From Thermomicrobiales bacterium (GTDB lineage: Bacteria > Chloroflexota > Chloroflexia > Thermomicrobiales > UBA6265), in the NCBI GenBank assembly GCA_965218235.1, contig OZ244595.1, positions 1,062,561 through 1,126,560 of the forward strand: DNA of 64,000 bases, in the 5' to 3' direction. The notes under the pieces are model-generated. The model ran no database searches. It saw only the letters and a program-made list of their open reading frames with translations, and had not been told where the DNA came from. Positions within the stretch are counted from its first letter, which is position 1; every line of letters begins with the position of its first letter. Positions 29,693 to 64,000 of this stretch are shown piece after piece. The position numbers and the translations under genes were made by a program.

Positions 29693-29740
29693 CCGGTTCC
29701 GGTTCCGGTTCCGGTTCCGGTTCCGGTTCCGGTTCCGGTT
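29693..29740. repeat. Perfect hexanucleotide microsatellite (CCGGTT)x8
   Basis: Counted directly: 8 uninterrupted units over 48 bp. Intergenic, 29-76 nt upstream of the LLM start codon on the minus strand and 244 nt upstream of the LuxR-type regulator ATG. Confidence 0.95.
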
Positions 29741-29983
29741 GGGCTCGACTTTCACGTCGAGGCCATTGTTGGGTCGTCCGCGAGCGGTCCGGCGATCTGG
29801 CCGATTGGACCGCTCATCCAACGCAGCGTGCATTTCGTGCCATCATCGGCACGTCATGCGATTATCAGGAATCCATGTGCCGGTCCAGGAACATGGAGAC
29901 GGTTATCATAGGATGCACCGAGGCATGGTAACCGCATACGTGACGGCTTTGGTTGGGCTTCGAACCAGTGGGAGTGGCGATCG

Positions 29984-51010: not shown

Positions 51011-52135
51011 TTGGCTCAGCCAGTAGCGGATCCGCTAGCCGCGACTTCGGCCGTGGTGTGTATGCACGCCACTGAGCCGTCAAGTGTGTATTTGTCCTGT
51101 CGCGCCCGCTGTGGCGCGAGCCGGGCTGACATCGATCACGCGTTGTACACCGATCGTACGATTGTCCGGCAACTGGCGATGCGCCGTACGGTGTTTGCCT
51201 GTCCGCGTGACATGCTGCCTGGGGTCCTCGGTAGCGCCGCTGCCCGGGTAGCGGCTCAACAAGCCAACCAACTTGCCAGAATCATCGTCGCCGACGGAAT
51301 CGCCGACGATGGGAGCGCCTGGGTCCGCCAAACCTGCGATGCGACGCTTGCGCTGTTGAGAGAGGCGCCCGCCACGACGGCACAGCTACGTGCGCGTCTG
51401 CCGGCACTTCAAGAGCGGATCACGCCACCTGAGCGACGAGGGGCAGCTCGAATGCCAGTCGCCTCCCGAGTACTCACCGTGCTGGGAGCCGGTGGCCGTG
51501 TCGTCCGGGGGGTGAACGTCGGCGGCTGGAAGACATCGCGACCAATATGGACGATCGCCGAGGATTGGCTGAGGAGTCCAACGGTGGCGCTTCCTGAGCC
51601 GGAGGGCTACGCCGATCTGATCAGCCGCTGGCTCTGGGCCTTCGGTCCGGGTACTGAAGACGATATGACGTGGTGGCTGGGCGCAACGAGAACGGCTGTG
51701 CGCAGGGCTCTTTCCGACCTTGCTGCTGTACCTGTGCGGCTCGAGGACAGCTCGCCGGCGTGGCTGCATCCGGACGAGGTTGATGAGGTACCCGCAGTTG
51801 CGGATTGGGCGGCGCTGCTGCCAGCACTCGACCCAACGACAATGGGTTGGCGAAGGCGTGACTTCTATATCGACAAGAACACCGTCCCATCGATCTATGA
51901 CCGCGCCGGTAATGGCAGACCGACCGCCTGGTGGAACGGGCGTACCGTCGGTGGTTGGACGCAGGAAGACGATGGCACAGTTGTCGTTCTGCCTGTCTTG
52001 CCGCTGCCGCAGACCGCGATCGCAGCACTTCGAAAAGAGGCGAGAGACCTGACTGAATGGCTCAGCGGCGACGTCATTCGCTCAAGCATGCAGTCACCAT
52101 TGATCGATGGGACGGTCTGCCCAGTGATTCGATGA
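51011..52135 (+). CDS. Winged-helix AlkZ/YcaQ-like protein (putative crosslink DNA glycosylase family)
   Basis: LYTDRTIVRQLAMRRTVFACPRDMLP ... C-terminal WWNGRTVGGW pattern. TTG start. The N-terminus looks short. Confidence 0.6.
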   Translation: MAQPVADPLAATSAVVCMHATEPSSVYLSCRARCGASRADIDHALYTDRTIVRQLAMRRTVFACPRDMLPGVLGSAAARVAAQQANQLARIIVADGIADDGSAWVRQTCDATLALLREAPATTAQLRARLPALQERITPPERRGAARMPVASRVLTVLGAGGRVVRGVNVGGWKTSRPIWTIAEDWLRSPTVALPEPEGYADLISRWLWAFGPGTEDDMTWWLGATRTAVRRALSDLAAVPVRLEDSSPAWLHPDEVDEVPAVADWAALLPALDPTTMGWRRRDFYIDKNTVPSIYDRAGNGRPTAWWNGRTVGGWTQEDDGTVVVLPVLPLPQTAIAALRKEARDLTEWLSGDVIRSSMQSPLIDGTVCPVIR

Positions 52136-52264
52136 GCGGAATTGGAAGACAAACAGGTCTGAGCGGGAAAGCCAGTCGGGTTGAAGCGGTGGGGCACTGG
52201 AGGGCATAAGGCTGTTTCGATGCGACGCACCGGTGGAGGAGTCGATGCTCTCAAGCTCCGGAGT

Positions 52265-53107
52265 CTATGAGAACGCCGCGGCGTTCTCCATGGCGAACTG
52301 TTCAAAGGAACGCGCCGACCGGCCGAGGAGCCCGGGCACGTCGTCAGTGACCCAGTCGGAGTCGCCAGCCGCGAACAGAGCAAGTGCCTGCGCGTTCATC
52401 GTTGCGACCTGAGCGGGGACGCCGGAATCGATCATCGCCTGCCGCTGCTGCTCGAAGGTCAACGGACGGAAGGCGATGGGTCGGCCGAGCACGCGCGCGA
52501 GGAGTGTCGCCGCGTCCGCATATGAGAGCGAGGCCGGACCGGTCAGCCAGTAGGTCTTGCAGGCATAGCTACCCGGATTACTGGCGACTGCCGCCGCGAC
52601 CGCCGCGACATCTCGCGTGTCGACCATGCCGACGCGGCCATCACCCGTGTTCGACCCGAAGCTGTCGTTCCGGGCGATCGACGGGGCCAGCATGAGGAAG
52701 TTCTGCATGTAGGCGTTGTTTCGCAGAAGCGTGTAGGCGAGGCCGGAGGCGATCAGCCCGTCCTCGATCTCGGTCTGGGCGCGGCGCCGGGCAATGGGCG
52801 AGTCCGCTGACGCTTTGCTCGTGATCTTCACGACGTGCTCGACGCCCGCGCGGACGGCACTGTCGACGACGTTCAACTCCTGAGCCGGAATTGCCGGACT
52901 GACGAGAATCACGGCCGAGACATCGCGCATCGCGGCGTCGATGGTCGTCGGTACTTCAAGGTCGCCAGGGACGACGTCGACCCCTATCCGGGCCAGCTCG
53001 GTCACCTTCTCCGGATCGCGAACCAGGAGCCGCACGGGCGCTCCTCGCTGGGCGAGCAGACGTGCCGCCTCCCAGCCCACCTTGCCGGCGGTCGAGATGA
53101 GAATCAT
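52265..53107 (-). CDS. NmrA-like / atypical SDR NAD(P)-binding protein
   Basis: MILISTAGKVGWEAARLLAQRGAPVRLLVRDPEK Rossmann start. Full length, unlike the relic at 40.6 kb. Confidence 0.75.
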   Translation of the reverse strand: MILISTAGKVGWEAARLLAQRGAPVRLLVRDPEKVTELARIGVDVVPGDLEVPTTIDAAMRDVSAVILVSPAIPAQELNVVDSAVRAGVEHVVKITSKASADSPIARRRAQTEIEDGLIASGLAYTLLRNNAYMQNFLMLAPSIARNDSFGSNTGDGRVGMVDTRDVAAVAAAVASNPGSYACKTYWLTGPASLSYADAATLLARVLGRPIAFRPLTFEQQRQAMIDSGVPAQVATMNAQALALFAAGDSDWVTDDVPGLLGRSARSFEQFAMENAAAFS

Positions 53108-53246: not shown

Positions 53247-54109
53247 GAGCGTGTCATGGACTCTGCGGGGGTCGTAAACTCAGCAAATGAGCACGATCTC
53301 CCGCAAGCCCTACCCGAGCGACGTGACGGACGACGAGTGGGCCTTCGTCGCCCCCTACCTGACGCTGATGACCCCGGACGCCCCGCAGCGCCGGCATGAT
53401 CCCCGCGAGGTTTTCAACGCCCTGCGCTGGATGGTGCGGACCGGCTCGCCGTGGCGCTATCTGCCCGGCGATCTGCCGCCGTGGGCAGCGGTCCACCAGC
53501 AGACGCTGCGCTGGATCGCCGCCGGCTGCTTCGAGGAGATGGTCCACGACCTGCGGGCGCTGCTGCGCGAAGCGAGCGGCCGCGATCCCGATCCCACCGC
53601 GGTGATCCTGGACGCGCGGACCCTGCGCGGCACCCCGGAGAGCGGGCACCGGGCCGGCTACGACGGGCACAAGAAGACCCGCGGCAGCAAGCTCCACGCG
53701 GCGGTCGACACGCTGGGGCACCTGCTGGCGCTGCGCGTGACGCCGGCCAACGATCAGGAGCGGGCGCAGGTGGGCGAGCTGGCGGACGCGGTGCAGGCGG
53801 CGACCGGCAACACCGTGGAACTGGCCTGGGTCGATCAGGGCTACACGGGGGAGGAGCCGGCTGACGAGGCGGAGGCACGCGGGATCGAGCTGGTCGTGGT
53901 CCGGCTGCCGGGAGCAAAGAAGGGCTTCGTCTTGCTGCCGCGGCGCTGGGTGGTGGAGCGCTCGTTCGCCTGGGCGACGCGCTTCCGGCGGCTGGCCAAG
54001 GACTATGAGCGCCTGCCCACGACCGTGGCCGGCTTGCATTTCGTCGCCTTTGCCTGCCTCATGCTTCACAAACTCTCGCTCCTGCCACTCGGAAGTCCAT
54101 GACACGCTC
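53247..54109 (+). mobile_element. Complete IS5-family insertion sequence (IS427-like size), about 0.86 kb
   Basis: Terminal inverted repeats GAGCGTGTCATGGAC (53247-53261) and GTCCATGACACGCTC (54095-54109) are perfect. They are flanked by TA on both sides (53245-46 and 54110-11). Confidence 0.85.
53287..54102 (+). CDS. IS5-family DDE transposase
   Basis: PYPSDVTDDEWAFVAPYL...REVFNALRWMVRTGSPWRYLP (DUF4096-type N-terminus). DDE_Tnp_1 body AVILDARTL...LHAAVDTLGHLLAL...VDQGYTG. Confidence 0.9.
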   Translation: MSTISRKPYPSDVTDDEWAFVAPYLTLMTPDAPQRRHDPREVFNALRWMVRTGSPWRYLPGDLPPWAAVHQQTLRWIAAGCFEEMVHDLRALLREASGRDPDPTAVILDARTLRGTPESGHRAGYDGHKKTRGSKLHAAVDTLGHLLALRVTPANDQERAQVGELADAVQAATGNTVELAWVDQGYTGEEPADEAEARGIELVVVRLPGAKKGFVLLPRRWVVERSFAWATRFRRLAKDYERLPTTVAGLHFVAFACLMLHKLSLLPLGSP

Positions 54110-54396
54110 TAGTTCTCGCGGAGCAGCGCTATTCCGTCTTCCGCGTCTCCGTCGTTCGCGAGTGACTTGCTCACCCAGTTGGCGTACCACGCCTTCGCCC
54201 GACCGGCGTTCAGCACCGCTGAGCGTCGGTCGTCGGGGAGAGGAAGGTCGAGCGTGCCGCGGTCCGGATGAACATGCCCAAGTTCGCGGCCTTCGAACAC
54301 GAATGCCGTGGCGCCTCGCGGGGTGGTTCGGGTGCTGACGCCGGGCCACAGAACGACCACGCTGAGGACCGAGACGGCAGGTGAGACAGGATTCAT
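54109..54396 (-). CDS. Luciferase-family / DUF5519-like small protein, 3' end clipped by the IS5 insertion
   Basis: WPGVSTRTTPRGATAFVFEGRELGHVHPDRGTLDLPLP...WVSKSL...ALLREN. RBS GGAAGGAG. Its TAG stop is formed by the TA target site plus the flank. Confidence 0.6.
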   Translation of the reverse strand: MNPVSPAVSVLSVVVLWPGVSTRTTPRGATAFVFEGRELGHVHPDRGTLDLPLPDDRRSAVLNAGRAKAWYANWVSKSLANDGDAEDGIALLREN

Positions 54397-54995
54397 GGCT
54401 GACTCCTTCCGGGTGAGGCTGGTGAGAACGAGGGCCGCTGATTCTGACAGGAGCCCCGGTCGCCGCGTGTCTCGTTGGGATCCAGCGGCTGGTTCGTGGC
54501 TGTCGGACCTCGCGAGCCAGCCGATGGGTCTCGCGGCCAGGCCAGCCCGATCTGCCGAGCCTGGAGGGCGGCGTCCCAGAAGGCGGCGATTTCGGTGACC
54601 TGGTCGCCGTCCCACTTGACGGTCTGGACGAATTCGGCGTCAAACGCCCCTCCGGTCGGGGCGATCACCGTGCCGTCAGGCAGGCTCATCTCCCCTGTGA
54701 AGGTCCCGGTGACGCGGGTGATCACCGTGATCCAGTCTCCGCTTCCGAACTGGATGGGGTAGGGGTCGTTCTCGACGTGAACGTCGGGGAAGATGCGGAA
54801 GAACTGCGTCATCGCCGCCGCGTGCGCCGCCCGTCCGTAGAGCGGCTCAGCGTTTCCAGTGACGTGCGCGATCATGTCCGGATGGTGTACTGCGTTCATG
54901 GCTTCGATGTCACGGGCGTTGAAGGCGTCGTCGCCCTGCTTCATCAGCGCGAGCAGGTGCGTTGTTCGGTCGGTGATGTCTGAAGGGGTCGTCAT
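54393..54995 (-). CDS. SnoaL-like ester cyclase family protein
   Basis: AFNARDIEAMNAVHHPDMIAHV...FPDVHVENDPYPIQFGSGDWITV...FVQTVKWDGDQVTEIAAFWD. It has an unusually long low-complexity tail. Confidence 0.7.
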   Translation of the reverse strand: MTTPSDITDRTTHLLALMKQGDDAFNARDIEAMNAVHHPDMIAHVTGNAEPLYGRAAHAAAMTQFFRIFPDVHVENDPYPIQFGSGDWITVITRVTGTFTGEMSLPDGTVIAPTGGAFDAEFVQTVKWDGDQVTEIAAFWDAALQARQIGLAWPRDPSAGSRGPTATNQPLDPNETRGDRGSCQNQRPSFSPASPGRSQP

Positions 54996-55044
54996 TCGGG
55001 ATCCTTCTCATGCTCGGTGGGTATCGTCATGCTCAGCTGAAAAT

Positions 55045-55060
55045 TTGTAGTTGAGTACAA
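55045..55060. promoter_or_regulatory. Candidate TetR operator, copy 1
   Basis: TTGTA-GTTGAG-TACAA palindrome in the AT-richer divergent promoter region between the cyclase operon and the TetR gene. Confidence 0.3.
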
Positions 55061-55225
55061 TAATAGTGTAGCACACAGGTAGGCCCAAGGAGATCCGACC
55101 CTGGCGACGCAACTGGATCAGGCGGCTGGAAACACGTTGACGTCCTAAACTGGTGAGTGACGTGCCGAGCGCACCCGTCGAGAAGAGCGACGAGTTCGGT
55201 CATCCAGCTTGGATCTGAATCCAAC

Positions 55226-55241
55226 TGTAGAGTTGAGTGCA
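55226..55241. promoter_or_regulatory. Candidate TetR operator, copy 2
   Basis: TGTAGAGTTGAGTGCA shares the TGTAG..GTTGAGT.CA core with copy 1. It lies 30 nt upstream of the TetR ATG. Confidence 0.3.
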
Positions 55242-55270
55242 GCCTCGGGAGTTCCGAGTAGAATCGTGTC

Positions 55271-55942
55271 ATGCCCAACCCCGGACTCCGCGAGCGCAAG
55301 AAGGCCCGCACTCGCCGACACATCGCCGATACCGCAGCCCGGCTGTTCGCCGAACGCGGCTATGAACGGGTCGCCGTCAGTGACGTCGCGCGCGAGGCCG
55401 AGGTCGCCGAGCAGACGGTCTACAACTACTTCCAGACCAAGGAGCAACTGGTCACCGACCGCGACCGGCAGATTCAGGATCGGCTGTGCGACCTGATCCG
55501 GGCACGGCCACCGGCCATGACGCCCGCAGCGGCCATCCGCGATTTCGTCCTTGAGTCCGTCGCCGGGATTCGCCGTATCCCACCGGAAATCTGGCGTGGC
55601 GAACTCGGTTACCTGGCGGCTATCAGTCCGACCGTCCATCGACTGGTGCTGGAGTTGAACGATCGTCAGGCCGTAGCTCTTTGTCGCACGATCAATGACA
55701 CGTCGACCGTTTCGCCGGAGGTCGCCAGGCTTCAGGGGATTGCGCTGGCGGGGGTCTTTCACATCATCATTACCGAGGCAGGTCGCCGCACTCGCGAGGG
55801 ACATGATCAGGCCACAATTGCCGACGAGTTGTGCGTGGTCGCGACCAGCATCCTTGATGAGCTCGACCGCTGGTTCACCGTCTCCAGTCGGACGTCATGG
55901 CTACAATCCGGTAGCCAGGACGTGTGTCGTCCCGGACATTGA
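55271..55942 (+). CDS. TetR/AcrR-family transcriptional regulator
   Basis: RERKKARTRRHIADTAARLFAERGYERVAVSDVAREAEVAEQTVYNYFQTKEQLV. Confidence 0.8.
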   Translation: MPNPGLRERKKARTRRHIADTAARLFAERGYERVAVSDVAREAEVAEQTVYNYFQTKEQLVTDRDRQIQDRLCDLIRARPPAMTPAAAIRDFVLESVAGIRRIPPEIWRGELGYLAAISPTVHRLVLELNDRQAVALCRTINDTSTVSPEVARLQGIALAGVFHIIITEAGRRTREGHDQATIADELCVVATSILDELDRWFTVSSRTSWLQSGSQDVCRPGH

Positions 55943-56263: not shown

Positions 56264-56821
56264 ATGGACCTGGCGCTCGCTGTCCATCTGGTACACACAG
56301 TAGACCGACACTCGAATAAGTCTACCCTGGAGCCCTCGAGCCCTCAAGAGTTGATGCAGCTGGCCCAGCAGATCCGGACCAGTAATCCGCAACCCTTACC
56401 GATCGAGCCCGCTCGAGCCCCGACGAAGAGTCTCCGGCGACGGTTCTCTCCCCAAGAGATCGAAGATCTTGTAGCTCGATACAACGCTGGAGCGGCCATT
56501 CGGGCGTTGAGTTTAGAGTACGGTGTTTCGAGGAGTGGGCTTCGGCAGCTCCTCCAAGCTGAGGGTGTGACGTTGCGGGTACAAGGGATCATGCCGGAAG
56601 ATGCCGAAAAAGCGGTGCGACTTTACGAAACCGGGCTTACGATCAGGCAGGTCGTGGACCTGGTTGGCTACTCGTATGGCACGATCCGGTCAGCGCTCCA
56701 TGAGAACGGTGTCGCCATGCGAGCAGGCCGTGGCGGCATGGGCCACGCGCTGGAACACGGCCGACACCCGCACCAAGCTGCGCCGCCTCTACCCGACATA
56801 GGACGGTTGACAGACCACTAA
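56264..56821 (+). CDS. Tandem-HTH protein resembling the C-terminal half of small serine recombinases (no catalytic domain, likely relic)
   Basis: Two repeats: FSPQEIEDLVARYNAGAAIRALSLEYGVSRSGLRQLL and PEDAEKAVRLYETGLTIRQVVDLVGYSYGTIRSAL. No resolvase Ser-domain lies upstream. The start is uncertain. Confidence 0.4.
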   Translation: MDLALAVHLVHTVDRHSNKSTLEPSSPQELMQLAQQIRTSNPQPLPIEPARAPTKSLRRRFSPQEIEDLVARYNAGAAIRALSLEYGVSRSGLRQLLQAEGVTLRVQGIMPEDAEKAVRLYETGLTIRQVVDLVGYSYGTIRSALHENGVAMRAGRGGMGHALEHGRHPHQAAPPLPDIGRLTDH

Positions 56822-57943
56822 GTACATTCACAGAATTTCTGCGGGATGTGGCTGTACGCCAATGATCGAGCGCATCTGTTTGGGTACGTGATTGTACCGG
56901 TCAAAGAAGGCGGTTGCGGCGGCGATGAGCGCCTTGACGGTCGGGAAGAGTTCGCAGTGGGTGACTTCCCGCCGGAAGTGCCGCCAGAGCATCTCGATCG
57001 GATTGAGCCATGGGCTGTAGCTTGGAAGATAGAGCAGGACGAGACGGCCCGCCGCACCACGCACCACCGCCTCGATCTCATCGCCTTCGTGGGTGGAGGC
57101 GTTGTCCCATGCCACATAGATGGTTCCGGCGGGATGCTTCTCCACCAACGCCTCAAGGAGTTCGGCGATTTCGCGCCGTCGTTTATGCCGGCGGATGAGG
57201 ACGACGGTCTGGCCGGCATGGTAATCCACCGCCCCAATGCCGTACCGTTTCTGTGGCTGGCCAGGCGTTGAAATCATCACCTGCTGGCCTTTGGGACTCC
57301 ACATGGCCGTGAGCGTTGGTAGCCAACTCAGGTTGAACTCGTCGGCATAGTAGAAGTGATCATCGGGGGCGAGGTGGTCACGCATGGCTTCAATCGTCTT
57401 TTTTTGAGCGCGTACGCCGGGTCGGGGCTGGTGATCGTGTGCTGCGGCCGGCTCAGCACGATGCCGACGGCTTTCAGATGCAGGCGCACGGTCTCGTCGG
57501 CAACCCGGATCCCGGTTTGCTCCGCCAGGTAGTCGGCAAGTCGCTGCAAGGTCCACAGTGAGAACGGCAGATCCAGGCTCCGGGGCCGGCGCCGCACGGC
57601 GGCAAGCAACTGGTCGACATAGGCCGCGGTGACCTTGCTGGGCGCTCCGGGATGGGGCTGGTCGCGCAGCCCTTCGATCCCCTCACTCAGGTAGCGTTTG
57701 AGCCAGCGTCGCACCGTGTCCTCGCTCATGCGCACGATGCCGGCAATGGCCGCCGCCGTTAGGTGCTGCTCCCCGGCCAACAACACCATCTGGACCCGGG
57801 TCCGCAGGCGGACATCGCGGCAGGTTCGGTACACCTCGTCCAAGGCGTCAAGCTGCGTCGAGGTGAGTTCGGGAATGCGTACGGGCTGCATCGCCGCCTC
57901 CTTTTTCTCAGCATACACCCCGCAACTTCTCTTTGGTTGTACT
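56821..57943 (-). mobile_element. Complete IS630-family insertion sequence, about 1.12 kb
   Basis: Imperfect terminal IRs AGTACATTCACAGAATTTCTGCGG versus the reverse complement AGTACAACCAAAGAGAAGTTGCGG. Flanked by the TA dinucleotide typical of IS630/Tc1 (56819-20 and 57944-45). Confidence 0.85.
56828..57891 (-). CDS. IS630-family transposase encoded in two frames joined at an A7 run
   Basis: OrfA (HTH) reads MQPVRIPELTS...PDPAYALKK. OrfB (DDE) reads KKTIEAMRDH...YADEFNLSW...VAWDNASTH...YLPSYSPWLNPIEMLW. The frames differ by -1 at CTCAAAAAAAGAC (plus-strand T7 at 57399-57405). RBS AAGGAGG precedes the ATG at 57891. Confidence 0.8.
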
Positions 57944-58149
57944 TAGATCGTCTGCGAGAACGAAACGGCCCTGCGGCAGTCTACAGTGTCAACAGCAAGG
58001 ACTATCCTTCCATCCGTAGGCCTGCCGAGCTGATCTCGACTATTGACGATGGGGCTGGCGCCAGGACCACTTCGGGTTTCCAGGCGGCCGACCGATTACT
58101 TGGGTGTGAGGCGATCTCTACCTCATAGCCTGGGACATGCTAGGGCGGG

Positions 58150-58980
58150 ATGCATTCTGATGGACAGGCTCGACACGGGCGAGGAGTGAGACCGAAGAGC
58201 ATGACGGAGCAATCGGCTCGGCCACCGACCACCCCAAAGCGGCAACTCAAGCAGTACAAGCGCCGCCCCGACGTCGATCTCCAGATCGACGAAGCGCTCA
58301 CCCTCGATCCCGCCGACCTGCGTCGGCGCGTCAATATCGTCTCCCCGACCGAGGAGGGATATTTCAAGGCTGAAACGATCGTCTACTTGCTACGCGAAGC
58401 TCACGCTGTGGGCGATCAGGAGCGCGTGGGCTGGCTTTGGACCTCACTCGTCAGCCGCTCCAAGGGTTACGTCAGAGGGTGGCTGGGTGGCTTGTCTCGC
58501 GAGCTGCAGGGGGAAGCCGTCGACGCTGTCTGGGATCGACTCATCGGGAAACTGCTGGCGCCTGATCACAGCGGGGACTACTACGAGGTTTCCTACTGGG
58601 ACGCGCTGGAGAAGCGGTCCGTCGACGTCTTCCGGAGCTTCACGGCGAAGACGAGTGCTTATCAAGAGACAAGTGTATCCGCCGTCCAGCTCCGCGCCGC
58701 GGACGACGCGGCTGAGCTAGATCCGGTCGATTTGGACCGTTCCTGGCAGCCCGAGTTTGCCACCCTCAACCAGGATGGGAGTCAGAGGATTCTCGCCCTC
58801 ATCCCCGAGCAGTACCGAGAGGCCTTCTACCTCTACGCCGTCGAGGGCTGGCCACTCTCGAGCTCAGATCCCCACCGACCGTCACTTTGCAAGAAGTTCA
58901 ACAGAACACCGGAAACGATACGGACGTGGCTGAGGCGGGCCCGCGCCGCTGCCAAGGAAGGGCTTGGAGAGCAACCATGA
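58150..58980 (+). CDS. Sigma-70-family-like protein (divergent, ECF-sized)
   Basis: The C-terminal IPEQYREAFYLYAVEGWPL...SLCKKFNRTPETIRTWLRRARAAAKE looks like a region-4 HTH. A region-2-like helix AVDAVWDRLIGKLL is present. An alternative start lies at 58201 (MTEQSARPP). Confidence 0.5.
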   Translation: MHSDGQARHGRGVRPKSMTEQSARPPTTPKRQLKQYKRRPDVDLQIDEALTLDPADLRRRVNIVSPTEEGYFKAETIVYLLREAHAVGDQERVGWLWTSLVSRSKGYVRGWLGGLSRELQGEAVDAVWDRLIGKLLAPDHSGDYYEVSYWDALEKRSVDVFRSFTAKTSAYQETSVSAVQLRAADDAAELDPVDLDRSWQPEFATLNQDGSQRILALIPEQYREAFYLYAVEGWPLSSSDPHRPSLCKKFNRTPETIRTWLRRARAAAKEGLGEQP

Positions 58981-59624
58981 GCGAGCGACCGCAGGACGAG
59001 CGCCTGGAGCGCATCCTCAACGAATTCGTGACGGAGGTGCCGTCACCGCACGCCTCCCACGTTGGAGCCTGGATGGCTCGCTTCCCCGAGTACGGTGACG
59101 AGATCATGGCTTTCGCCGCAAGCTGGGCCATGATGAGGGTGTCGCCCCGCAGCCCTAACGTGATCACCGAAGAAGAGGTCGAGGCGCGGGGTCTGGCTGC
59201 ACTCGAACGGTTGCGTTCAGAGTCGGGTGCGTCGAACCATGGAGCGGCATCGGGTGGCATCACGTCGTTGATGCCACCCGGCTCCTCGCTCGACGACCTG
59301 GCCGAACATGCTGGCCTGAGTGTCCCTCTGTGGCGGCAGATCAGCCTGCGCCAGATCGCGAATGTGCCACCCGATGTGATCAAGGACATAGCGGCAGCTA
59401 TCCAGACGTCGTATCAGGCGGTGGCTGACTTCATTCGACAGGGACCACCCCTCGCCGCCCCTGGACATTACAGGGCGGCGGAACAACCCCGGGTAAGCGA
59501 ACCACTCGACTTCTTCGAGGAAGTCCGGCTTGACGACGACCTCACAGAGAGCCAGAAAGCCCGCCTCCTCGCGATGGGTTCGAACACCGCAGAGGATGGC
59601 CTCACCGGCGGACTGATCCGATGA
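58977..59624 (+). CDS. HTH-containing protein (ImmR/XRE- or anti-sigma-like partner), hypothetical
   Basis: ATGA overlap with the upstream stop. Central LDDLAEHAGLSVPLWRQISLRQIANV helix-turn-helix-like segment. 215 aa. Confidence 0.45.
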   Translation: MSERPQDERLERILNEFVTEVPSPHASHVGAWMARFPEYGDEIMAFAASWAMMRVSPRSPNVITEEEVEARGLAALERLRSESGASNHGAASGGITSLMPPGSSLDDLAEHAGLSVPLWRQISLRQIANVPPDVIKDIAAAIQTSYQAVADFIRQGPPLAAPGHYRAAEQPRVSEPLDFFEEVRLDDDLTESQKARLLAMGSNTAEDGLTGGLIR

Positions 59625-62600
59625 ATGACTGGAGTGCGGAGCGACGTGCCGCCAGGTCGCTCCGCACTCGAGCTGGGGCCGAACATCTCTCGCTCGCTTC
59701 CGACGTGATCGCGGCCATCGCGATATTGACCAAGGTGAAGTCGTCGAGCGTCCGCGAGGGGCGTTCCCTTCTGGACGGCGGTCAAGCCAAGCTTGATATC
59801 GACGCGAAGCGAATCTGGTACAGCGCCGCGATCGAGCCCTCGGTACTGCCATTCTTCCTCGCCCACGAGTACGCGCACCTCGAGCTCAATCATGGCGGGT
59901 GCCGAGGTAGAGCGGGCGACGTCGACGTCGAGGCCACCGGCACGGAGATGGACGCCGGCATCGAGCGGGTTCAGGGCTACAGCCCACAGGAGCGACGAGA
60001 ACGAGCGGCCAATATCTTCGCCCAAGAACTGTTGCTGCCGACCCCGCTCCTGCGTCGGTGGTTCCTGGACGACGGGCTGGGCGCTACCGCGATAGCGAAC
60101 CGCGTCAGGCTCGACGTGGGACTCGTTCGCCGCCAGCTGATGGCCGCGCTCCTCGACGTGACCAACGACGCCGCTGTCCAGGAGGATGGTAGCAACGAGG
60201 CCGACGACGAGGTCATGGGTGCGGGTAAGGTTGCGCCGACGACGGACACCGTCCCGGCCGCTCTGGACGACAGCCAGGCCGCCGCCGCGTACGTCGACCA
60301 GGGCCCCTTCCTGCTCGAGGCTGGCCCGGGAACCGGGAAGACCCGGACGCTGATCGCACGCATCCTCCACCTCCTCGCACGGGGCGCCCGGCCTGACCAG
60401 ATCGTGGTGCTGACCTTCAGCAACCGAGCGGCAGCGGAGATCCGGGATCGGGTGGCCCTGACCATGCCGGGAGCCGAGGCGGACCTATGGGTCGGCACGT
60501 TCCACGCCTTCGGCCTTGAGCTGCTTCGCCAGTATGGTCCCCGGATCGGTCTGCCCAAGCAGCTGGACATACTCGACCCGTTCCGGGCACTGCAGTTCCT
60601 GGAGGAGAACCTGCTGCAGCTCGGGTTGGCCCACTACCAGCAGCTCTCGCGCCCGTCACAGCCGCTGCGCGACATCGCGAAGGCCATCTCGCGGGCCAAG
60701 GACGAGCTCTGCGAACCCGATGACTATCGCGGGCACGCCGAGAAGATGTTGATCCGGGCCCAGGAGCGGCGGGATGACGAGGCCATCCTCGTGGCGGAGA
60801 AGGCGATCAAGGTCGCCCACGTCTACCGCTTCTATCAGGATCACCTGGAGCGCAGCGGACTGGTCGACTTCGGTGACCTGATCGTCCGGACGGTGAAGCT
60901 CCTACGGGACGACGCCGGGTTGCGGGACGAGGTTCGCGACCGGTACCGCTACGTCCTCGTCGACGAATACCAGGACGTCAACCACGCCTCCACCGAGCTG
61001 GTCCGGGAACTGGCGGGAGCAGGGGAGGGGCTATGGGTCGTCGGCGACCCACGTCAGGCCATCTACCGCTTCCGTGGTGCCGACCCGAGCAACGTCTCCC
61101 GGTTCACCGAGCACTTCCCGACGGCTAGTCGATCAGCTCTGCGCTTTCAACTACCGCTCTCGCCCTGTGATCATCGAGGCCGTGTCGGGCCTCGCCGGCG
61201 TCATGAAGGCCGCCGACGGGTCAGTGCCTGAGCCCTGGCAGTCGACGCGGGTCGACACGCGTGGTGAGATAGGCCTCGGTATCGCCGCCACGTTCGAGGA
61301 CGAGATGGCCGGCATCGTCGCGGCTATCCGGCAGTACCAGGCGGCCAAGGTGCCGTTCAGGGACCAGGCGGTCCTCTGCCGCACCCATACGATCCTCGGC
61401 CGCGTCGCCGGGGCGCTCAAGGCGGCCGGGATACCCACGCAGTACTTTGGCAACCTGTTCGAGCGGGAAGAGACGCGCGACATGCTGGCGCTCCTCTCGC
61501 TGGCGGCCGAGGCCGACGGCGTCAGCCTGATACGCGTGGCCACCTTGCCCGAATACGCCATCCCGGCCGCCGATGTCGCCCAGCTGCTCGACGCGGCCGG
61601 GGACCGCGCGATGGCCTTCCCGCAGGCACTCTCGCTCACGTCGACCCTGCAGGATCTCTCCGCTGAAGGTCGCGCTGGTTTGGAGCGTCTCGCGGACCAT
61701 CTGGGAGATGTCCCCTTCACGACCGGCCCCTGGGGGTTCCTGAGCCGCTACCTCCTAGAGGTGAGCCAGTACCTCGCGTCCCTGGCCCGTGACGCCAGTG
61801 TCGAGGGGGCCATCAGCCGGTCAGCCCTACTGGCCTTCCTCGACGTTGTTCATGGCTATGAGCGGGCCAACCGGACACCGGACCTGCCGGGCAGGGATGT
61901 GGCTCAGTTGAAGTCCGGCTTCCTCAAGCATGTGCGCGACCTGCAGGTCTACGGCGAGGAGCGACAGTACCGGCAGCCACCCGACCTGCCTGATGGCGTC
62001 GACGCGGTCCGCGTGATGACCATGCACGCCAGCAAGGGGCTGGAGTTTCCGGTCGTGTACCTGCCCTACCTTGGTGGGCAGTACATACCGCAACCCAGGC
62101 AGTCCGACGACTGCCCGCCGCCGGACGGGATGGTCGCCAACCCGGTGTCGGACAACGACACCGACGAGCTCAATGTGTTCTTCGTCGCCGTGTCGCGGGC
62201 GCAGGATGCGCTCTTGCTGTCCCGGGCCGAGCGGTATGGCGATGCGTCCAGCAACGCGTCAAAGTTCCTTGCACACGTCCAGCCCTGGTTGCCCCGGAAG
62301 GCAGACAGCTCGCCGTGGTGGCTTTCGCAGGCCGATCCTCCCATGCCAAGGTCGGGGACAGGAGCCAACCTCGGACGTGACCTGTTCGGTGACCGGGAGC
62401 TGGAGACCTACATCCGGTGCCCCCGACAGTATTACTACGATCGCGTATTACGTCTCGAGGGGCGGTTCGGCGGGACGGCATCGCTGCGGTTCCACCGGTC
62501 GATCCAGCGCACCCTGCGTTGGGTCGAGGGTGTCCACACTGGACCAGCCGGTCAGGCGCCGGCGAACGCCGAGGTCCTTGACCAGCTGGACGCGATCTGG

Positions 62601-63116
62601 GCGGAGACCGGCCCGGTCACGCACCCCTACGAGCCGCTCTACCGGACTGAGGCCAGGCGGATGGTACTGCTGGCCGCGGGCTGGCTGCACCAGCGCGCGG
62701 GGACCTTTGAGGAAGTCACGCTGGAGATCCCGGTCGGCGATGCCCAGGTCCGGTTCCGGCCACACCAGGTCGAGCGGATCGGCACCTCCGACGCGAGGAT
62801 CCGGCGGATTCGCACGGGTCGCGTGCCGCGGAAAGCTCCTGACGACGACCGCGATGCTCTCTACATGTTGGGGACCGGCCAGATCGGGGGCCGCGTGGAC
62901 GCCGAGGCGATGTACCTTGGCGGGGCTGAGGTAAAGATCGAGCCGATCAATCTCTCCCCGAAGAAACGTGCTACACGCATCGAGCACTACCGTGAGGCCA
63001 TCGAGGGCATCAGAGCTGGCGAGTTCCCGGCTAGGCCCAGCAGCCGGCAGTGCCCAGGCTGCCCGTTCCTCTTCATCTGCCCTGCGCCGGAGCCACCCAC
63101 ACTCCCGGCCGGCTGA
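59621..63116 (+). CDS. ImmA/IrrE-like Zn-peptidase + UvrD/PcrA-type SF1 helicase + Cas4/AddB-like 4-Cys PD-(D/E)XK nuclease fusion. The reading frame is broken once near 61.12-61.15 kb.
   Basis: Peptidase motifs FFLAHEYAHLELNHG (HExxH) and ERAANIFAQELLLP. Helicase motifs I AGPGTGKT, Ia VLTFSNRAAAEI, II LVDEYQDVN and III VVGDPRQAIYRFRGA are in the 59621..61231 frame. Motif IV NYRSRPVI, HASKGLEFPVVYL and FVAVSRAQDAL are in the 61074..63116 frame. The C-terminus has YIRCPRQYYY ... RQCPGCPFLFICP. ATGA overlap with the upstream gene. Confidence 0.75.
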
Positions 63117-63256
63117 CTACTTCCGGTTTTTCTGACGGCTCCCGATTACTCCAGTGTGAGGGGATGTCGCCGGCGCCGTGCCGGCGCCCCGCACCGGTCG
63201 GCTGTCTCGCTGACCGCTTATTGGACCGCCCTCACCAGGGCAAGGAGACCGTCACC

Positions 63257-63568
63257 ATGGTCAACCCGACCACCATTTTGCGGCCGATTAAGCCGCGCAA
63301 GGAGATCAAGGTCACCGTCCGCTACCCGGCCGCCGCCAAACCCTTCAAGGACAACAACGCCGCCATCGACGAGACTGTCGGTGAGCTCAAGGTCCGGGTG
63401 CTGCGCGCGTTCGGCCTCGACGCCGGTGGCGACGCCGTGAGCTATCAGCTGTTCCACGGGCGGGCCGCCCTGGATGAAACCCGCACCCTCGGGTCAATCG
63501 AGGCCAACGAGGGCGATGCTGACCGCGAGCTTCAGCTGAAGTTCGCGCAGCAGATCACGCAGGGCTGA
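63257..63568 (+). CDS. Small beta-grasp (ubiquitin-like) candidate ending in Gly-stop
   Basis: 103 aa. RBS AAGGAGA lies 8 nt upstream. Alternating beta-strand pattern EIKVTVRY...TVGELKVRVLRAFGL...SYQLFHG...LQLKF. The terminal residues are QQITQG followed directly by the stop. Adjacent to the E2-like ORF. Confidence 0.55.
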   Translation: MVNPTTILRPIKPRKEIKVTVRYPAAAKPFKDNNAAIDETVGELKVRVLRAFGLDAGGDAVSYQLFHGRAALDETRTLGSIEANEGDADRELQLKFAQQITQG

Positions 63569-63571
63569 TCG

Positions 63572-64000
63572 GTGGACCAGCAGCTAGCCGCGCTCAACCT
63601 TCAGCTGGACCTGGAGCAGATCCGCCAGGAGGTCCTCCCGGCGGAACTGGATCGCTGGGCGATTGCGTTGGTCGGTCCTGTCTGCCTCGACGTCAGCCTC
63701 TCGCCTGGTCGCGACCCCGTCGAGCGCTACCAGGCCCGACTGACTTGGCCGGACTACCCGGACCGGCCACCCTCGGTCCGCTTCGTCGAGCCCGCGACGG
63801 GCCGCCTCGACCTGAGCCGGGCCTGGCCCGATTTTCCCGGCGTCCGCCCGCCGCAGGATATCTCCGCCCCCTGGACCAGCGACGGTCACGCAGCCCACCC
63901 CGAGTGGCACGCTGATTCCCGCTACCGGTGGTCCAGCCACGGCAACCCGCTGCTCCGGATCCTCCGCACGCTCCAGGAACAACTGGACGACGAATACCTA
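63572..64000 (+). CDS. E2/UBC-fold-like protein, 5' partial (runs off the window), Ser at the expected active-site position
   Basis: A GTG lies 3 nt after the Ubl stop, in the same frame, open to the window end (143 codons). It is not in the ORF track because it has no stop. RWAIALVGP...ARLTWPDYPDRPPSVRFVEP...AWPDFPG...DISAPW parallels the E2 pattern W.a.I.GP...F...YP..PP.V.F...HPN...G.IC. Confidence 0.55.
   Translation, partial: MDQQLAALNLQLDLEQIRQEVLPAELDRWAIALVGPVCLDVSLSPGRDPVERYQARLTWPDYPDRPPSVRFVEPATGRLDLSRAWPDFPGVRPPQDISAPWTSDGHAAHPEWHADSRYRWSSHGNPLLRILRTLQEQLDDEYL

What the first reader, a model, noticed from the sequence alone, without database searches (positions are those of the whole stretch)
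58150..64000. IS-flanked island: a sigma-like / HTH / ImmA-helicase-nuclease operon directly upstream of a Ubl + E2-like pair (candidate regulated ubiquitin-like conjugation system, cut by the window end)
- Seen: five co-directional genes. The first three are joined by ATGA start/stop overlaps (58977-58980 and 59621-59624). After a 140-nt gap there is a strong RBS and a 103-aa protein ending Gly-stop. Three nt later, in the same frame, an ORF begins with E2/UBC hallmarks.
- Established: Ubl+E2(+E1+peptidase) operons (Bil, Bub, CBASS Cap2/Cap3) act in antiphage defence. HTH plus ImmA/IrrE-type protease pairs (for example CapH/CapP) switch defence operons on after DNA damage.
- Inference: here the ImmA-like protease is fused to a DNA helicase-nuclease and paired with a sigma-like protein. 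I do not recognise this combination as a described regulator or sensor for a conjugation operon. Two IS elements and a recombinase relic lie immediately upstream, which fits an accessory island.
Basis: partly seen in the sequence, partly recalled or inferred. Interest (0 to 1): 0.85.

Follow-up and report, generated by a model that had tools for sequence, protein, structure and literature searches.

The report
Sigma–protease-helicase switch upstream of Bil defence
The window holds the start of a known ubiquitin-like antiphage system (Bil), preceded by three conserved genes (a sigma-like factor, a small unknown protein and a protease-helicase-nuclease fusion) that accompany such systems across several bacterial phyla, share a promoter-like motif with them, and were not described in any paper or family library I searched.

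Summary
The Ubl (63257-63568) and E2-like gene (63572 to the window end) are BilA and BilB of a divergent Bil system. Sister loci continue with a BilC JAB peptidase and a BilD E1.

The three upstream genes are a sigma-70/ECF-like protein, a 215-aa protein with no known family, and an M78-peptidase/UvrD-helicase/Fe-S PD-(D/E)XK-nuclease fusion.

This trio is not a local oddity:
- Homologues of all three, in the same order, precede type I Bil or Bub operons in 12 of 12 sampled plasmid loci from six phylum- or class-level groups.
- 92 plasmid records carry the fusion.
- The sigma-like family has 630 clusters at 50% identity.

A bipartite promoter-like motif (TTCSGGTTT-N13-CGATTA) sits before both the sigma gene (58069-58110) and the Ubl gene (63119-63160). 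It recurs at the same two places in distant loci.

Best model: a DNA-sensing, protease-gated sigma switch that induces Bil/Bub. This is an inference and has not been tested. I found no description of it in papers, PADLOC, Pfam or NCBIfam.

This window's copy looks damaged. A +1 frameshift splits the helicase gene at about 61143-61145, and the BilB catalytic Cys is Ser (63863-63865).

The parts
53287..54102 (+). IS5-family transposase (DUF4096 + DDE_Tnp_1); outer mobile element upstream of the block
   Evidence: Pfam DDE_Tnp_1 4.6e-26, DUF4096 1.3e-22
56264..56821 (+). The same gene lies upstream of the sigma gene in L013, L030 and L031.
   Evidence: Pfam HTH_58 2.8e-15; neighbours
56828..57918 (-). 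IS630-family element as two ORFs (HTH 57328-57918, DDE_3 56828-57556), inserted between the HTH_58 gene and the sigma gene. It is also present in L013 and L017 but absent in L030/L031.
   Evidence: Pfam DDE_3 1.2e-27, HTH_32 1.1e-20
58069..58110 (+). Promoter-like bipartite motif P1 (ACTTCGGGTTT-N13-CGATTACT-N3-GTGTGAG), about 100 nt upstream of the sigma-like gene
   Evidence: Exactly two matches in the 64-kb window, none in 100 shuffles. Conserved at the same place in L013-L017 and, in a relaxed form, in proteobacterial loci.
58201..58980 (+). Sigma-70/ECF-like protein, 259 aa. Alternative starts are GTG 58186 and the non-conserved ATG 58150.
   Evidence: Pfam Sigma70_r4_2 3e-6. In the AF2 model the top ~48 Foldseek PDB hits are almost all sigma factors, mostly ECF type. 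The family has 630 clusters. Homologous to the sigma-like genes of plasmid loci.
58977..59624 (+). 'Mid' protein, 215 aa, all-helical, no known family. Candidate anti-sigma factor or CapH-like protease substrate.
   Evidence: Pfam HTH_31 only at E = 0.04; no PDB relative; AF2 model unreliable; its profile hits the equivalent gene in 6 of 10 plasmid loci; alignment A5
59621..63116 (+). M78 (ImmA/IrrE) peptidase + UvrD SF1 helicase + PD-(D/E)XK nuclease with four Cys. The reading frame is broken by a +1 insertion at about 61143-61145 (ORFs 59621-61231 and 61074-63116).
   Evidence: Pfam Peptidase_M78 2.4e-8, UvrD-helicase 1.9e-68, UvrD_C 2.7e-29, PDDEXK_1 3.6e-17; frameshift; catalytic motifs invariant across 13 homologues
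63119..63160 (+). Promoter-like bipartite motif P2 (ACTTCCGGTTT-N13-CGATTACT-N3-GTGTGAG), 3 nt after the helicase stop and about 100 nt upstream of the Ubl gene
63257..63568 (+). BilA-like single-domain Ubl, 103 aa, ending in Gly
   Evidence: PADLOC BilA E = 0.009. Always directly upstream of BilB in 12 of 12 loci. C-terminal LKLxQQ[IV][TV]QG is conserved, with 0-3 trailing residues in homologues.
63572..64000 (+). BilB-like E2, 147 aa in full (the last 5 codons lie beyond the window). Ser98 (TCC, 63863-63865) stands where relatives have the catalytic Cys.
   Evidence: P0001 is 100% identical and 147 aa; PADLOC BilB 0.0022, and 3.1e-7 for the L014 orthologue; Cys column

Best explanation
**What is shown.** The locus is the first five genes of a seven-gene unit made of two transcription units.
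- Unit 1: sigma-like factor, 'mid' protein, M78-peptidase/UvrD-helicase/Fe-S-nuclease fusion.
- Unit 2: a divergent BilABCD ubiquitin-like conjugation system (Ubl, E2, JAB peptidase, E1). Only bilA and most of bilB fall inside the window.
- Each unit is preceded by the same bipartite promoter-like motif.
- The trio is a conserved partner of Bil and Bub operons across several phyla.

**What is inferred.**
1. The sigma-like protein directs RNA polymerase to both promoters, so it drives its own operon and the Bil operon.
2. The co-translated mid protein holds the sigma factor inactive, either as an anti-sigma factor or in a CapH-like role.
3. The helicase-nuclease part of the fusion loads on abnormal DNA, such as phage or plasmid DNA ends, or ssDNA from damage.
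4. That event activates the N-terminal M78 protease, which cleaves the mid protein and releases the sigma factor.
5. Bil is then induced and conjugates its Ubl to phage proteins.

This matches the logic of CapP/CapH, IrrE/DdrO and CalpL/CalpT/CalpS. The differences are a translocating helicase-nuclease as the sensor and a dedicated sigma factor as the output.

**This window's copy.** The sensor gene is frameshifted and the E2 catalytic Cys is Ser, so the copy is probably non-functional unless these are sequencing errors.
For: **Bil identity**
- PADLOC BilB, BilC and BilD hits on the window and sister loci: 3.1e-7, 2.9e-13 and 2.9e-28.
- BilC-like protein matches PDB 8tyx_B (BilC) at 1.9e-5.
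- Precomputed Pfam BilB-like, BilD_N and ThiF on neighbouring genes.
- The Ubl C-terminal Gly is conserved.

**Sigma-like protein**
- Pfam region 4.
- The top ~48 Foldseek hits are almost all sigma factors, mostly ECF type, aligned over both domains.

**Fusion protein**
- HExxH, the third zinc ligand, Walker A, DEYQD, NYRS and four Cys are invariant in 13 homologues.

**Coupling of the trio to the cargo**
- The same gene order holds in L013, L014/15 and L001+L030/31.
- It also holds in 12 of 12 sampled plasmid loci, with type I Bil or Bub as cargo.
- The window's sigma and mid profiles detect the plasmid counterparts.

**Shared promoter motif**
- Two exact copies in the window, none expected by chance.
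- The same two positions hold the motif in orthologous loci.
- A relaxed form (TTC[CG]GGTTT-N~13-CGA[TC][TC]A) falls at the same positions in alpha-, beta- and gammaproteobacterial loci and almost nowhere else in them.

**Module behaviour**
- A Bil operon with BilB 77% identical to the window's (L019) instead has a divergent Xre-type (CapH-like) gene and lacks the motif.
- More distant Bil relatives carry HTH+M78 pairs or sigma+X+M78 triads in the same position.

**Selection**
- dN/dS is 0.16-0.47 for all genes.
Against: - No experiment bears on any step of the mechanism.
- The mid protein has no recognisable anti-sigma or secure HTH domain, and its model was unusable.
- Foldseek E-values for the sigma model are weak (about 0.01, TM 0.2-0.3), and the model has pLDDT 64.7.
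- The motif could be an operator for another protein rather than a sigma-specific promoter.
- The constant pairing with Ubl systems specifically, rather than with diverse defence cargo as for CapW, CapH/CapP or CapK/CapS, may mean the helicase-nuclease takes part in the defence mechanism itself and is not only a regulator.
- Two of the actinobacterial lineages carry a disrupted helicase gene: a frameshift here and an in-frame TAG in L001/L031.
Confidence: 0.6

Rival explanations
1. The trio and the Bil operon are two separate systems that happen to sit side by side. Under this reading the M78-UvrD-nuclease is itself an antiphage effector, in the manner of GajB or AddAB, with its own sigma/mid regulator, and it neighbours Bil only because defence genes cluster.
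For: - PADLOC GajB (UvrD) models match the helicase strongly, at 1e-51.
- Defence islands juxtapose unrelated systems; L001 has a CBASS next door.
- L019 and other Bil relatives lack the helicase.
Against: - The trio was followed by a Bil or Bub operon in 12 of 12 sampled plasmid loci and in every actinobacterial locus, with tight spacing.
- The same promoter-like motif precedes both units.
- No GajA-like partner gene is adjacent.
- Where the trio is absent, a different regulator occupies its position.
Confidence: 0.15
2. The helicase-nuclease-protease is a working component of Ubl-based defence rather than a transcription switch. For example, it could be the target or recruiter of Ubl conjugation on foreign DNA, or the M78 domain could process or remove the Ubl.
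For: - The association is exclusive to Ubl-conjugation cargo (Bil type I, Bub and this clade) across several phyla.
- Known Cap regulators are promiscuous in their cargo (PMC13373217).
Against: - Bil and Bub already encode their own Ubl peptidases (JAB, DUF6527).
- Bil from Collimonas protects E. coli as a four-gene operon (Hör et al. preprint).
- A sigma-like gene plus shared promoter motifs point to transcriptional control.
- Related Bil operons use plain HTH/M78 regulators in the same position.
Confidence: 0.15
3. In this genome the block is a decaying remnant with no present function.
For: - A +1 frameshift splits the helicase gene.
- The BilB catalytic Cys is replaced by Ser.
- IS630 and IS5 elements are adjacent.
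- The sister locus L013 has a split BilD and a DDE_3 fragment downstream.
Against: - dN/dS of 0.16-0.47 against L013 and L014 shows recent purifying selection.
- The frameshift lies in a homopolymer and could be a sequencing error.
- This reading concerns only this copy and is compatible with the best explanation for the family.
Confidence: 0.5

Closest known systems
BilABCD (Bil, bacterial ISG15-like) antiphage system, type I (Hör et al. 2023 preprint 10.1101/2023.09.04.556158; Chambers et al., PMC10557695)
   Same: - Gene order is Ubl-E2-JAB-E1.
- PADLOC BilB, BilC and BilD profiles match.
- The BilC-like protein aligns to the solved BilC structure 8tyx.
- The Ubl ends in a conserved Gly, with short trailing peptides in some homologues.
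   Different: - The Ubl has a single domain of about 100 aa, against the roughly 160-aa two-domain BilA.
- BilB scores below the Pfam DUF7665 threshold and has a shorter loop before the catalytic Cys.
- In this window that Cys is Ser.
- The clade lies in Actinobacteria and other soil phyla.
CapH + CapP (HTH repressor plus ssDNA-activated M78 protease), regulators of CBASS, Bil type II, Bub and other systems (Lau et al. 2022 preprint 10.1101/2022.04.27.489752)
   Same: - An M78/ImmA/IrrE-type HExxH peptidase is encoded immediately upstream of a defence operon, next to a small putative DNA-binding or regulatory protein.
- The proposed logic is the same: a DNA signal activates the protease, which cleaves the regulator and induces the operon.
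- Lau et al. noted 24 CBASS systems in which capH and capP sit beside a sigma-70-family sigma factor.
   Different: - The peptidase is fused to a roughly 950-aa UvrD helicase plus Fe-S PD-(D/E)XK nuclease, instead of CapP's small C-terminal domain.
- The genes are co-directional with the cargo, not divergent.
- The partner protein is not a recognisable Xre HTH.
- A dedicated sigma-like factor and two copies of a cognate promoter-like motif are present.
CalpL-CalpT-CalpS (type III CRISPR Lon protease / anti-sigma / ECF-like sigma) and DdvS-DdvA (ECF sigma / anti-sigma controlling a CBASS-CRISPR island, PMC11506125)
   Same: A defence-associated ECF-like sigma factor whose release is proposed, or shown, to follow proteolysis or inactivation of a partner.
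   Different: - The protease class differs (M78 against Lon).
- The trigger differs: DNA via a helicase-nuclease against cA4 or an envelope signal.
- No sequence relationship was detected.
AddAB/AdnAB/RecBCD-type helicase-nucleases and Gabija GajB
   Same: - UvrD-type SF1 motifs.
- A C-terminal PD-(D/E)XK nuclease with the four-Cys pattern of the AddB/Cas4 kind.
- Strong GajB profile matches.
   Different: - A single polypeptide with an N-terminal metallopeptidase.
- No partner subunit and no GajA.
- Embedded in a sigma/Ubl operon context.

Membership tests
BilABCD (Bil) system | Ubiquitin-like protein with a conserved C-terminal Gly, encoded first in the operon | tested here: met
   The 103-aa protein ends ...QQITQG-stop. 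The motif is conserved in 14 homologues, with 0-3 trailing residues. PADLOC BilA gives only E = 0.009. The fold was not modelled.
BilABCD (Bil) system | E2-like BilB with a catalytic Cys | tested here: not met
   Homology to BilB is present: PADLOC 0.0022, and 3.1e-7 for the L014 orthologue; Pfam DUF7665 0.0017, below threshold. The Cys conserved in 10 of 11 clade members, with C-x5-[DE]-G spacing as in canonical BilB and the type II CEHH motif, is Ser98 in this window. The feature is met in the sister loci.
BilABCD (Bil) system | JAB/JAMM deubiquitinase BilC next in the operon | tested here: met
   It lies outside the window. In L013 (96.5% DNA identity) the 181-aa protein matches PDB 8tyx_B BilC at 1.9e-5, with the E...HxH...S..D motif aligned, and PADLOC BilC at 2.9e-13. 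For this exact genome the feature cannot be read from the window.
BilABCD (Bil) system | E1 adenylating enzyme BilD (ThiF fold with BilD_N) | tested here: met
   It lies outside the window. L014 has a 509-aa protein with Pfam ThiF 2.8e-19 and PADLOC BilD 2.9e-28; BilD_N is precomputed. In L013 the gene is split into 442 + 60 aa.
BilABCD (Bil) system | Antiphage activity through Ubl conjugation to phage proteins | not testable with these tools
   Requires experiments.
CapH + CapP regulator pair | M78 (ImmA/IrrE) metallopeptidase with an HExxH active site | tested here: met
   Pfam Peptidase_M78 2.4e-8. HEYAH and the downstream Glu are invariant in 13 homologues.
CapH + CapP regulator pair | Xre-family HTH repressor partner (CapH) | tested here: inconclusive
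   HTH_31 at E = 0.04-0.06; Xre-like-HTH at 0.0034 in one homologue; no PDB match; AF2 model pLDDT 44.7.
CapH + CapP regulator pair | Stand-alone protease of about 200-300 aa, encoded divergently from the cargo and sharing its promoter region | tested here: not met
   The protease is the N-terminal 215 aa of a 1164-aa helicase-nuclease. It is co-directional with the cargo.
ECF-type sigma factor with co-transcribed anti-sigma factor | Sigma-2 and sigma-4 domains | tested here: met
   Pfam Sigma70_r4_2 3e-6. The AF2 model has two helical domains joined by a disordered linker. The top ~48 Foldseek PDB hits are almost all sigma factors, mostly ECF type, but E is about 0.01. The plasmid homologue hits Sigma70_ECF and TIGR02937.
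ECF-type sigma factor with co-transcribed anti-sigma factor | Cognate bipartite promoter upstream of its own operon and of its target genes | tested here: met
   The motif occurs at 58069-58110 and 63119-63160, with none expected by chance, and recurs at equivalent positions across several phyla. Its function as a promoter was not tested.
ECF-type sigma factor with co-transcribed anti-sigma factor | Downstream gene encodes a recognisable anti-sigma domain | tested here: inconclusive
   The gene overlaps the sigma gene's stop codon (ATGA). No anti-sigma family was detected in Pfam or NCBIfam.
Gabija (GajA + GajB) | GajB UvrD helicase paired with a GajA OLD-family nuclease | tested here: not met
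   GajB profiles match because of the UvrD core. The adjacent genes are sigma-like, mid and Ubl, with no GajA-like gene.

The most novel reading that the evidence does not exclude
The sigma-like / mid / M78-UvrD-nuclease trio is a previously undescribed signal-transduction cascade that spans several phyla and is dedicated to bacterial ubiquitin-like conjugation systems (Bil and Bub). A DNA-translocating helicase-nuclease senses foreign or broken DNA. It switches on its own fused protease, which destroys an anti-sigma-like partner. That frees a private sigma factor, which reads a conserved private promoter in front of both the sensor operon and the Ubl operon.
Probability: 0.4. Interest if true: 0.85.

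Novelty: new variant of a known kind. Interest (0 to 1): 0.72.

Why it matters
How Bil and Bub ubiquitin-like defence systems are switched on, and what they sense, is still open. [quoted passage not shown]

The trio found here would add a fourth module, and a mechanistically richer one:
- a protease fused to a RecB/AddA-like helicase-nuclease, which suggests direct sensing of DNA ends or ssDNA;
- a private sigma factor as the output;
- a promoter-like motif that can be read straight from the sequence.

The module is widespread. It occurs on conjugative plasmids of rhizobia, Xanthomonas, clinical Acinetobacter and Klebsiella. It makes directly testable predictions about the promoter, the cleavage substrate and the DNA trigger.

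It also shows that this window's copy is probably inactive. That matters for anyone who wants to use this genome as the experimental source.

Tried and rejected
**Searches that found nothing**
- Exact look-ups of the Ubl (103 aa) and of P0001 returned no contig. The source genome was not among the GTDB representatives hit, so the window's own continuation beyond 64000 could not be read. L013 served as a proxy.
- A metagenome scan with the promoter motif gave 0 hits. A scan with the M78-domain alignment gave 0 confirmed hits.
- PDB sequence searches with the M78 domain, the mid protein, the sigma-like protein and the BilB profile gave nothing meaningful.
- Rfam and the sigma-70 promoter scan found nothing in 57500-64000.

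**Analyses that gave no usable result**
- The AF2 model of the mid protein was unusable, with pLDDT 44.7.
- hhalign found no relationship between the window's sigma or mid proteins and those of the sigma+X+M78 triads in L004, L005 and L010. Only the M78 domains aligned.
- The GC-rich leader between P2 and the Ubl gene folds into hairpins, but only 1 of 27 predicted pairs shows a compensatory change. I dropped it as a riboswitch or attenuator candidate.

**Readings rejected**
- Gabija: there is no GajA.
- Type II (CEHH) Bil: the Pfam Metal_CEHH match is only E = 0.18.

**Literature**
- Searches for the trio and supplement searches found no description. Subscription-only papers are not covered.

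Full report
**1. What is in the window**

On the + strand between 58.1 kb and the window end lie these ORFs:
- 58150/58201-58980;
- 58977-59624;
- 59621-61231 together with 61074-63116;
- 63257-63568;
- 63572 to the window end.

- ATGA overlaps at 58977-58980 and 59621-59624;
- a 140-nt gap before the Ubl gene;
- AAGGAG 9 nt before its ATG;
- a 103-aa product ending QG-stop;
- a GTG ORF 3 nt later in the same frame.

Pfam assigns these domains:
- Gene 1: Sigma70_r4_2, 3e-6.
- Gene 2: only a weak HTH_31, E = 0.04.
- First helicase ORF: Peptidase_M78 (2.4e-8) and UvrD-helicase (1.9e-68).
- Second helicase ORF: UvrD_C (2.7e-29) and PDDEXK_1 (3.6e-17).

Upstream lie an IS5-family transposase (53287-54102), an HTH_58/HTH_7-only gene (56264-56821) and an IS630-family element (56828-57918).

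**2. Corrections to the observation**

- **Frameshift in the helicase-nuclease gene.** The UvrD motif III region reads in one frame and the NYRS motif in another. Compared with L013 and L014, the window has CGCTTTCAAC where they have CGCTTCAAC, one extra T at about 61143-61145. Relatives encode one 1164-aa protein.
- **Start of the sigma gene.** The ATG at 58150 is not conserved in L014. The stored protein P0011 starts at 58201 and is 259 aa.
- **BilB catalytic residue.** The E2-like protein has Ser (TCC, 63863-63865) where 10 of 11 clade members have Cys, including the L013 orthologue.
  - The spacing C-x5-[D/E]-G matches canonical type I BilB (LPCDRxxxEGH).
  - It also matches the type II CEHH motif (C138, E144, H146; PMC10557695).
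  - Mutating this Cys abolishes defence or conjugation in the studied systems (C113A; C138A).

**3. The downstream genes are a Bil system**

The E2 fragment is 100% identical to a stored 147-aa protein, so only 5 codons are missing. Three groups of relatives show what follows:

| Locus | Relation to the window | Genes after BilB |
|---|---|---|
| L013 | 96.5% DNA identity over 56289-64000 | 181-aa protein, then a ThiF/BilD_N E1 |
| L014, L015 | 80% DNA identity | the same, fully intact |
| L001 | BilB 59% identical | the same |

- The 181-aa protein matches solved BilC (8tyx_B, 1.9e-5), with the JAMM motif aligned.
- PADLOC gives BilC 2.9e-13, BilD 2.9e-28 and BilB 3.1e-7.
- The Ubl is always directly upstream of BilB in 12 of 12 loci.
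- It keeps a C-terminal LKLxQQ[IV][TV]QG, followed by 0-3 residues in some homologues. That is the pattern expected of a precursor trimmed by a deubiquitinase.
- The Ubl is a single domain of about 100 aa that aligns to the second half of the PADLOC BilA model.

The cargo is therefore a divergent member of a known defence family.

**4. The upstream trio is conserved and widespread**

Word-indexed searches found only 5 sigma-like and 3 mid homologues, which made the trio look like a rarity. More sensitive searches changed that picture:
- An exhaustive profile search found 630 clusters at 50% identity for the sigma-like family, 258 of them at E ≤ 1e-10, nearly all full-length at about 260 aa.
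- tblastn of the fusion protein against plasmids found 90 records with at least 80% coverage, including the M78 domain.
- tblastn of the N-terminal M78 region of the L020 fusion found 92 plasmid records. They come from Acinetobacter, Rhizobium, Agrobacterium, Mesorhizobium, Xanthomonas, Leptolyngbya, Klebsiella, Variovorax and an Abditibacteriota plasmid.

I inspected 12 of these loci. All 12 have the same layout:
- a sigma-like gene (230-265 aa), variously annotated as sigma factor-like, LuxR or response regulator;
- a hypothetical protein of 190-221 aa;
- the fusion protein of 1100-1150 aa;
- then either type I BilABCD or a Bub operon.

The type I Bil cargo shows Pfam DUF7665/BilB-like at 1e-70, Prok-JAB and ThiF. 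The Bub cargo is multiubiquitin, ThiF and DUF6527. In the Abditibacteriota plasmid, three divergently oriented upstream genes have the sizes of BilB, BilC and BilD. They were not scanned against any family library.

Profiles built from the window's sigma-like and mid proteins detect the plasmid counterparts: 7 of 10 at E ≤ 1e-9, and 6 of 10 at E ≤ 1.4e-4. All three genes are therefore homologous families, not look-alikes.

In the fusion family these features are invariant:
- the HExxH motif and the downstream Glu;
- Walker A, DEYQD and NYRS;
- four Cys in the nuclease domain (one N-terminal plus CxxCx5C), the pattern of Fe-S nucleases such as AddB and Cas4.

**5. A shared promoter-like motif**

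The 42-nt pattern ACTTCSGGTTT-N13-CGATTACT-N3-GTGTGAG occurs exactly twice in the 64-kb window. One copy is at 58069-58110, before the sigma gene. The other is at 63119-63160, 3 nt after the helicase stop and before the Ubl gene. No match occurred in 100 shuffles.
- The orthologous loci carry it at the same two places.
- A relaxed form (TTC[CG]GGTTT-N~13-CGA[TC][TC]A) falls at the same positions in Roseovarius, Bradyrhizobium, Aminobacter, Pseudohalocynthiibacter, Xanthomonas and Variovorax loci. It is nearly absent elsewhere in those loci.
- Bub-linked loci show a TTACCGNT-N~14-CGATTR variant before the cargo.
- No canonical sigma-70 promoter is found in the region.

A promoter-like element co-conserved with a private sigma-like family, present before both units, is the strongest evidence that the two units form one regulon.

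**6. Evidence that the trio sits in the regulator slot**

- L019 has a Bil operon whose BilB is 77% identical to the window's. Instead of the trio it has a divergent Xre-type gene, and it lacks the motif.
- More distant Bil relatives (42-48% identity; Acidobacteria, Nitrospirota, Myxococcota, Gemmatimonadota) carry one of the following in that position:
  - HTH_3 plus M78 pairs;
  - an HTH-M78 fusion;
  - divergent sigma-like + about 150-180 aa + M78 triads.
- Published work reports CapH+CapP next to 15% of type II Bil operons and 31% of Bub operons.
- Lau et al. noted 24 CBASS systems with capH and capP beside a sigma-70-family sigma factor.

None of the papers I could search mentions a helicase-nuclease-fused protease or this trio. 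PADLOC has no model for the sigma-like or mid protein and matches the helicase only through generic GajB/UvrD models. NCBIfam has no model that any of the three reaches at its curated cut-off.

**7. Mechanism (inferred)**

- The sigma-like protein has a two-domain helical architecture. The top ~48 Foldseek PDB hits are almost all sigma factors, mostly ECF type, although E is only about 0.01 and pLDDT is 64.7.
- The mid gene is translationally coupled to the sigma gene, which is the usual place for an anti-sigma factor.
- M78 proteases of this kind (CapP, ImmA, IrrE) cleave a partner regulator after a DNA-damage signal.

I therefore propose this chain:
1. The helicase-nuclease engages DNA ends or ssDNA.
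2. That activates the fused protease.
3. The protease cleaves the mid protein.
4. The sigma factor is released.
5. The sigma factor transcribes from P1 (positive feedback) and P2 (Bil).

Nothing in this chain beyond domain content, synteny and the motif is demonstrated. Because the trio is found only with Ubl systems, a more direct mechanistic partnership remains possible.

**8. State of this copy**

- dN/dS against L013 and L014 is 0.16-0.47 for every gene, so the family is under purifying selection.
- The window nevertheless carries the frameshift and the Cys-to-Ser change.
- L013 has a split BilD, and the L001/L031 lineage has an in-frame TAG in the nuclease domain, seen in two samples.
- The block sits among IS elements, and in L013 a DDE_3 fragment also lies downstream.

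This copy may be decaying, or the two lesions may be sequencing errors.

**9. Verdict**

- The Bil part is a new member of a known kind.
- The trio with its promoter is a new variant of protease-gated defence regulation. It is widespread and, as far as I could search, undescribed.

Noticed in passing
window 56289-64000 compared with L013 5931-13642: Divergence is mosaic. There are no differences across 58000-60000 (sigma, mid and the start of the fusion gene). Divergence then rises to about 15% in 62000-63000 (the nuclease domain), with the Ubl and BilB also diverged. This suggests a recombination breakpoint near 60000 between two alleles of the system.
   Followed up: partly
L001 1787-1789; L031 (helicase called as 1043 + 111 aa): An in-frame TAG interrupts the nuclease domain of the fusion gene in a related lineage. 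It was seen in two different metagenome samples, so it is unlikely to be an assembly error. Together with the window's frameshift, this makes two independent disruptions of the same gene.
   Followed up: partly
L001 5588-9812: Immediately downstream of the related Bil operon lies a type II CBASS (DUF6602, SMODS cyclase, Cap2 E1/E2, Cap3 JAB). Two ubiquitin-like-machinery defence systems therefore sit side by side.
   Followed up: no
L013 1047-5166 and 17193-18622: The sister locus is flanked by a DEAD/ResIII/SWI2-SNF2 helicase (1077 aa) with an HNH protein on one side and a type I R-M HsdM on the other. This is a defence-island setting.
   Followed up: no
window 63172-63188: A perfect 7-bp GC hairpin (GGCGCCG-TGC-CGGCGCC) lies in the leader between motif P2 and the Ubl start. 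The leader is conserved among four orthologues, but only 1 of 27 predicted pairs shows a compensatory change.
   Followed up: yes
window 29721-29751: A short TTCCGG tandem run (TTCCGGTTCCGGTTCCGGTT) was the only other match to the relaxed promoter pattern in the window. It is probably a chance match caused by the repeat.
   Followed up: no
window 51011-53107 and 54393-55942: Between and around the IS elements lie ordinary accessory genes: an AlkZ-like DNA glycosylase, an NmrA-like reductase, a SnoaL-like protein and a TetR regulator. The IS5 copy at 53287-54102 is therefore not directly adjacent to the Bil block.
   Followed up: partly
L020 4299-5466 and L024 3133-4186: In two Rhodobacterales plasmids the trio is preceded by WYL-domain and WGR-domain genes and a divergent SbcCD-like SMC ATPase/nuclease pair. 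This may be a further DNA-damage-linked module next to the system.
   Followed up: no
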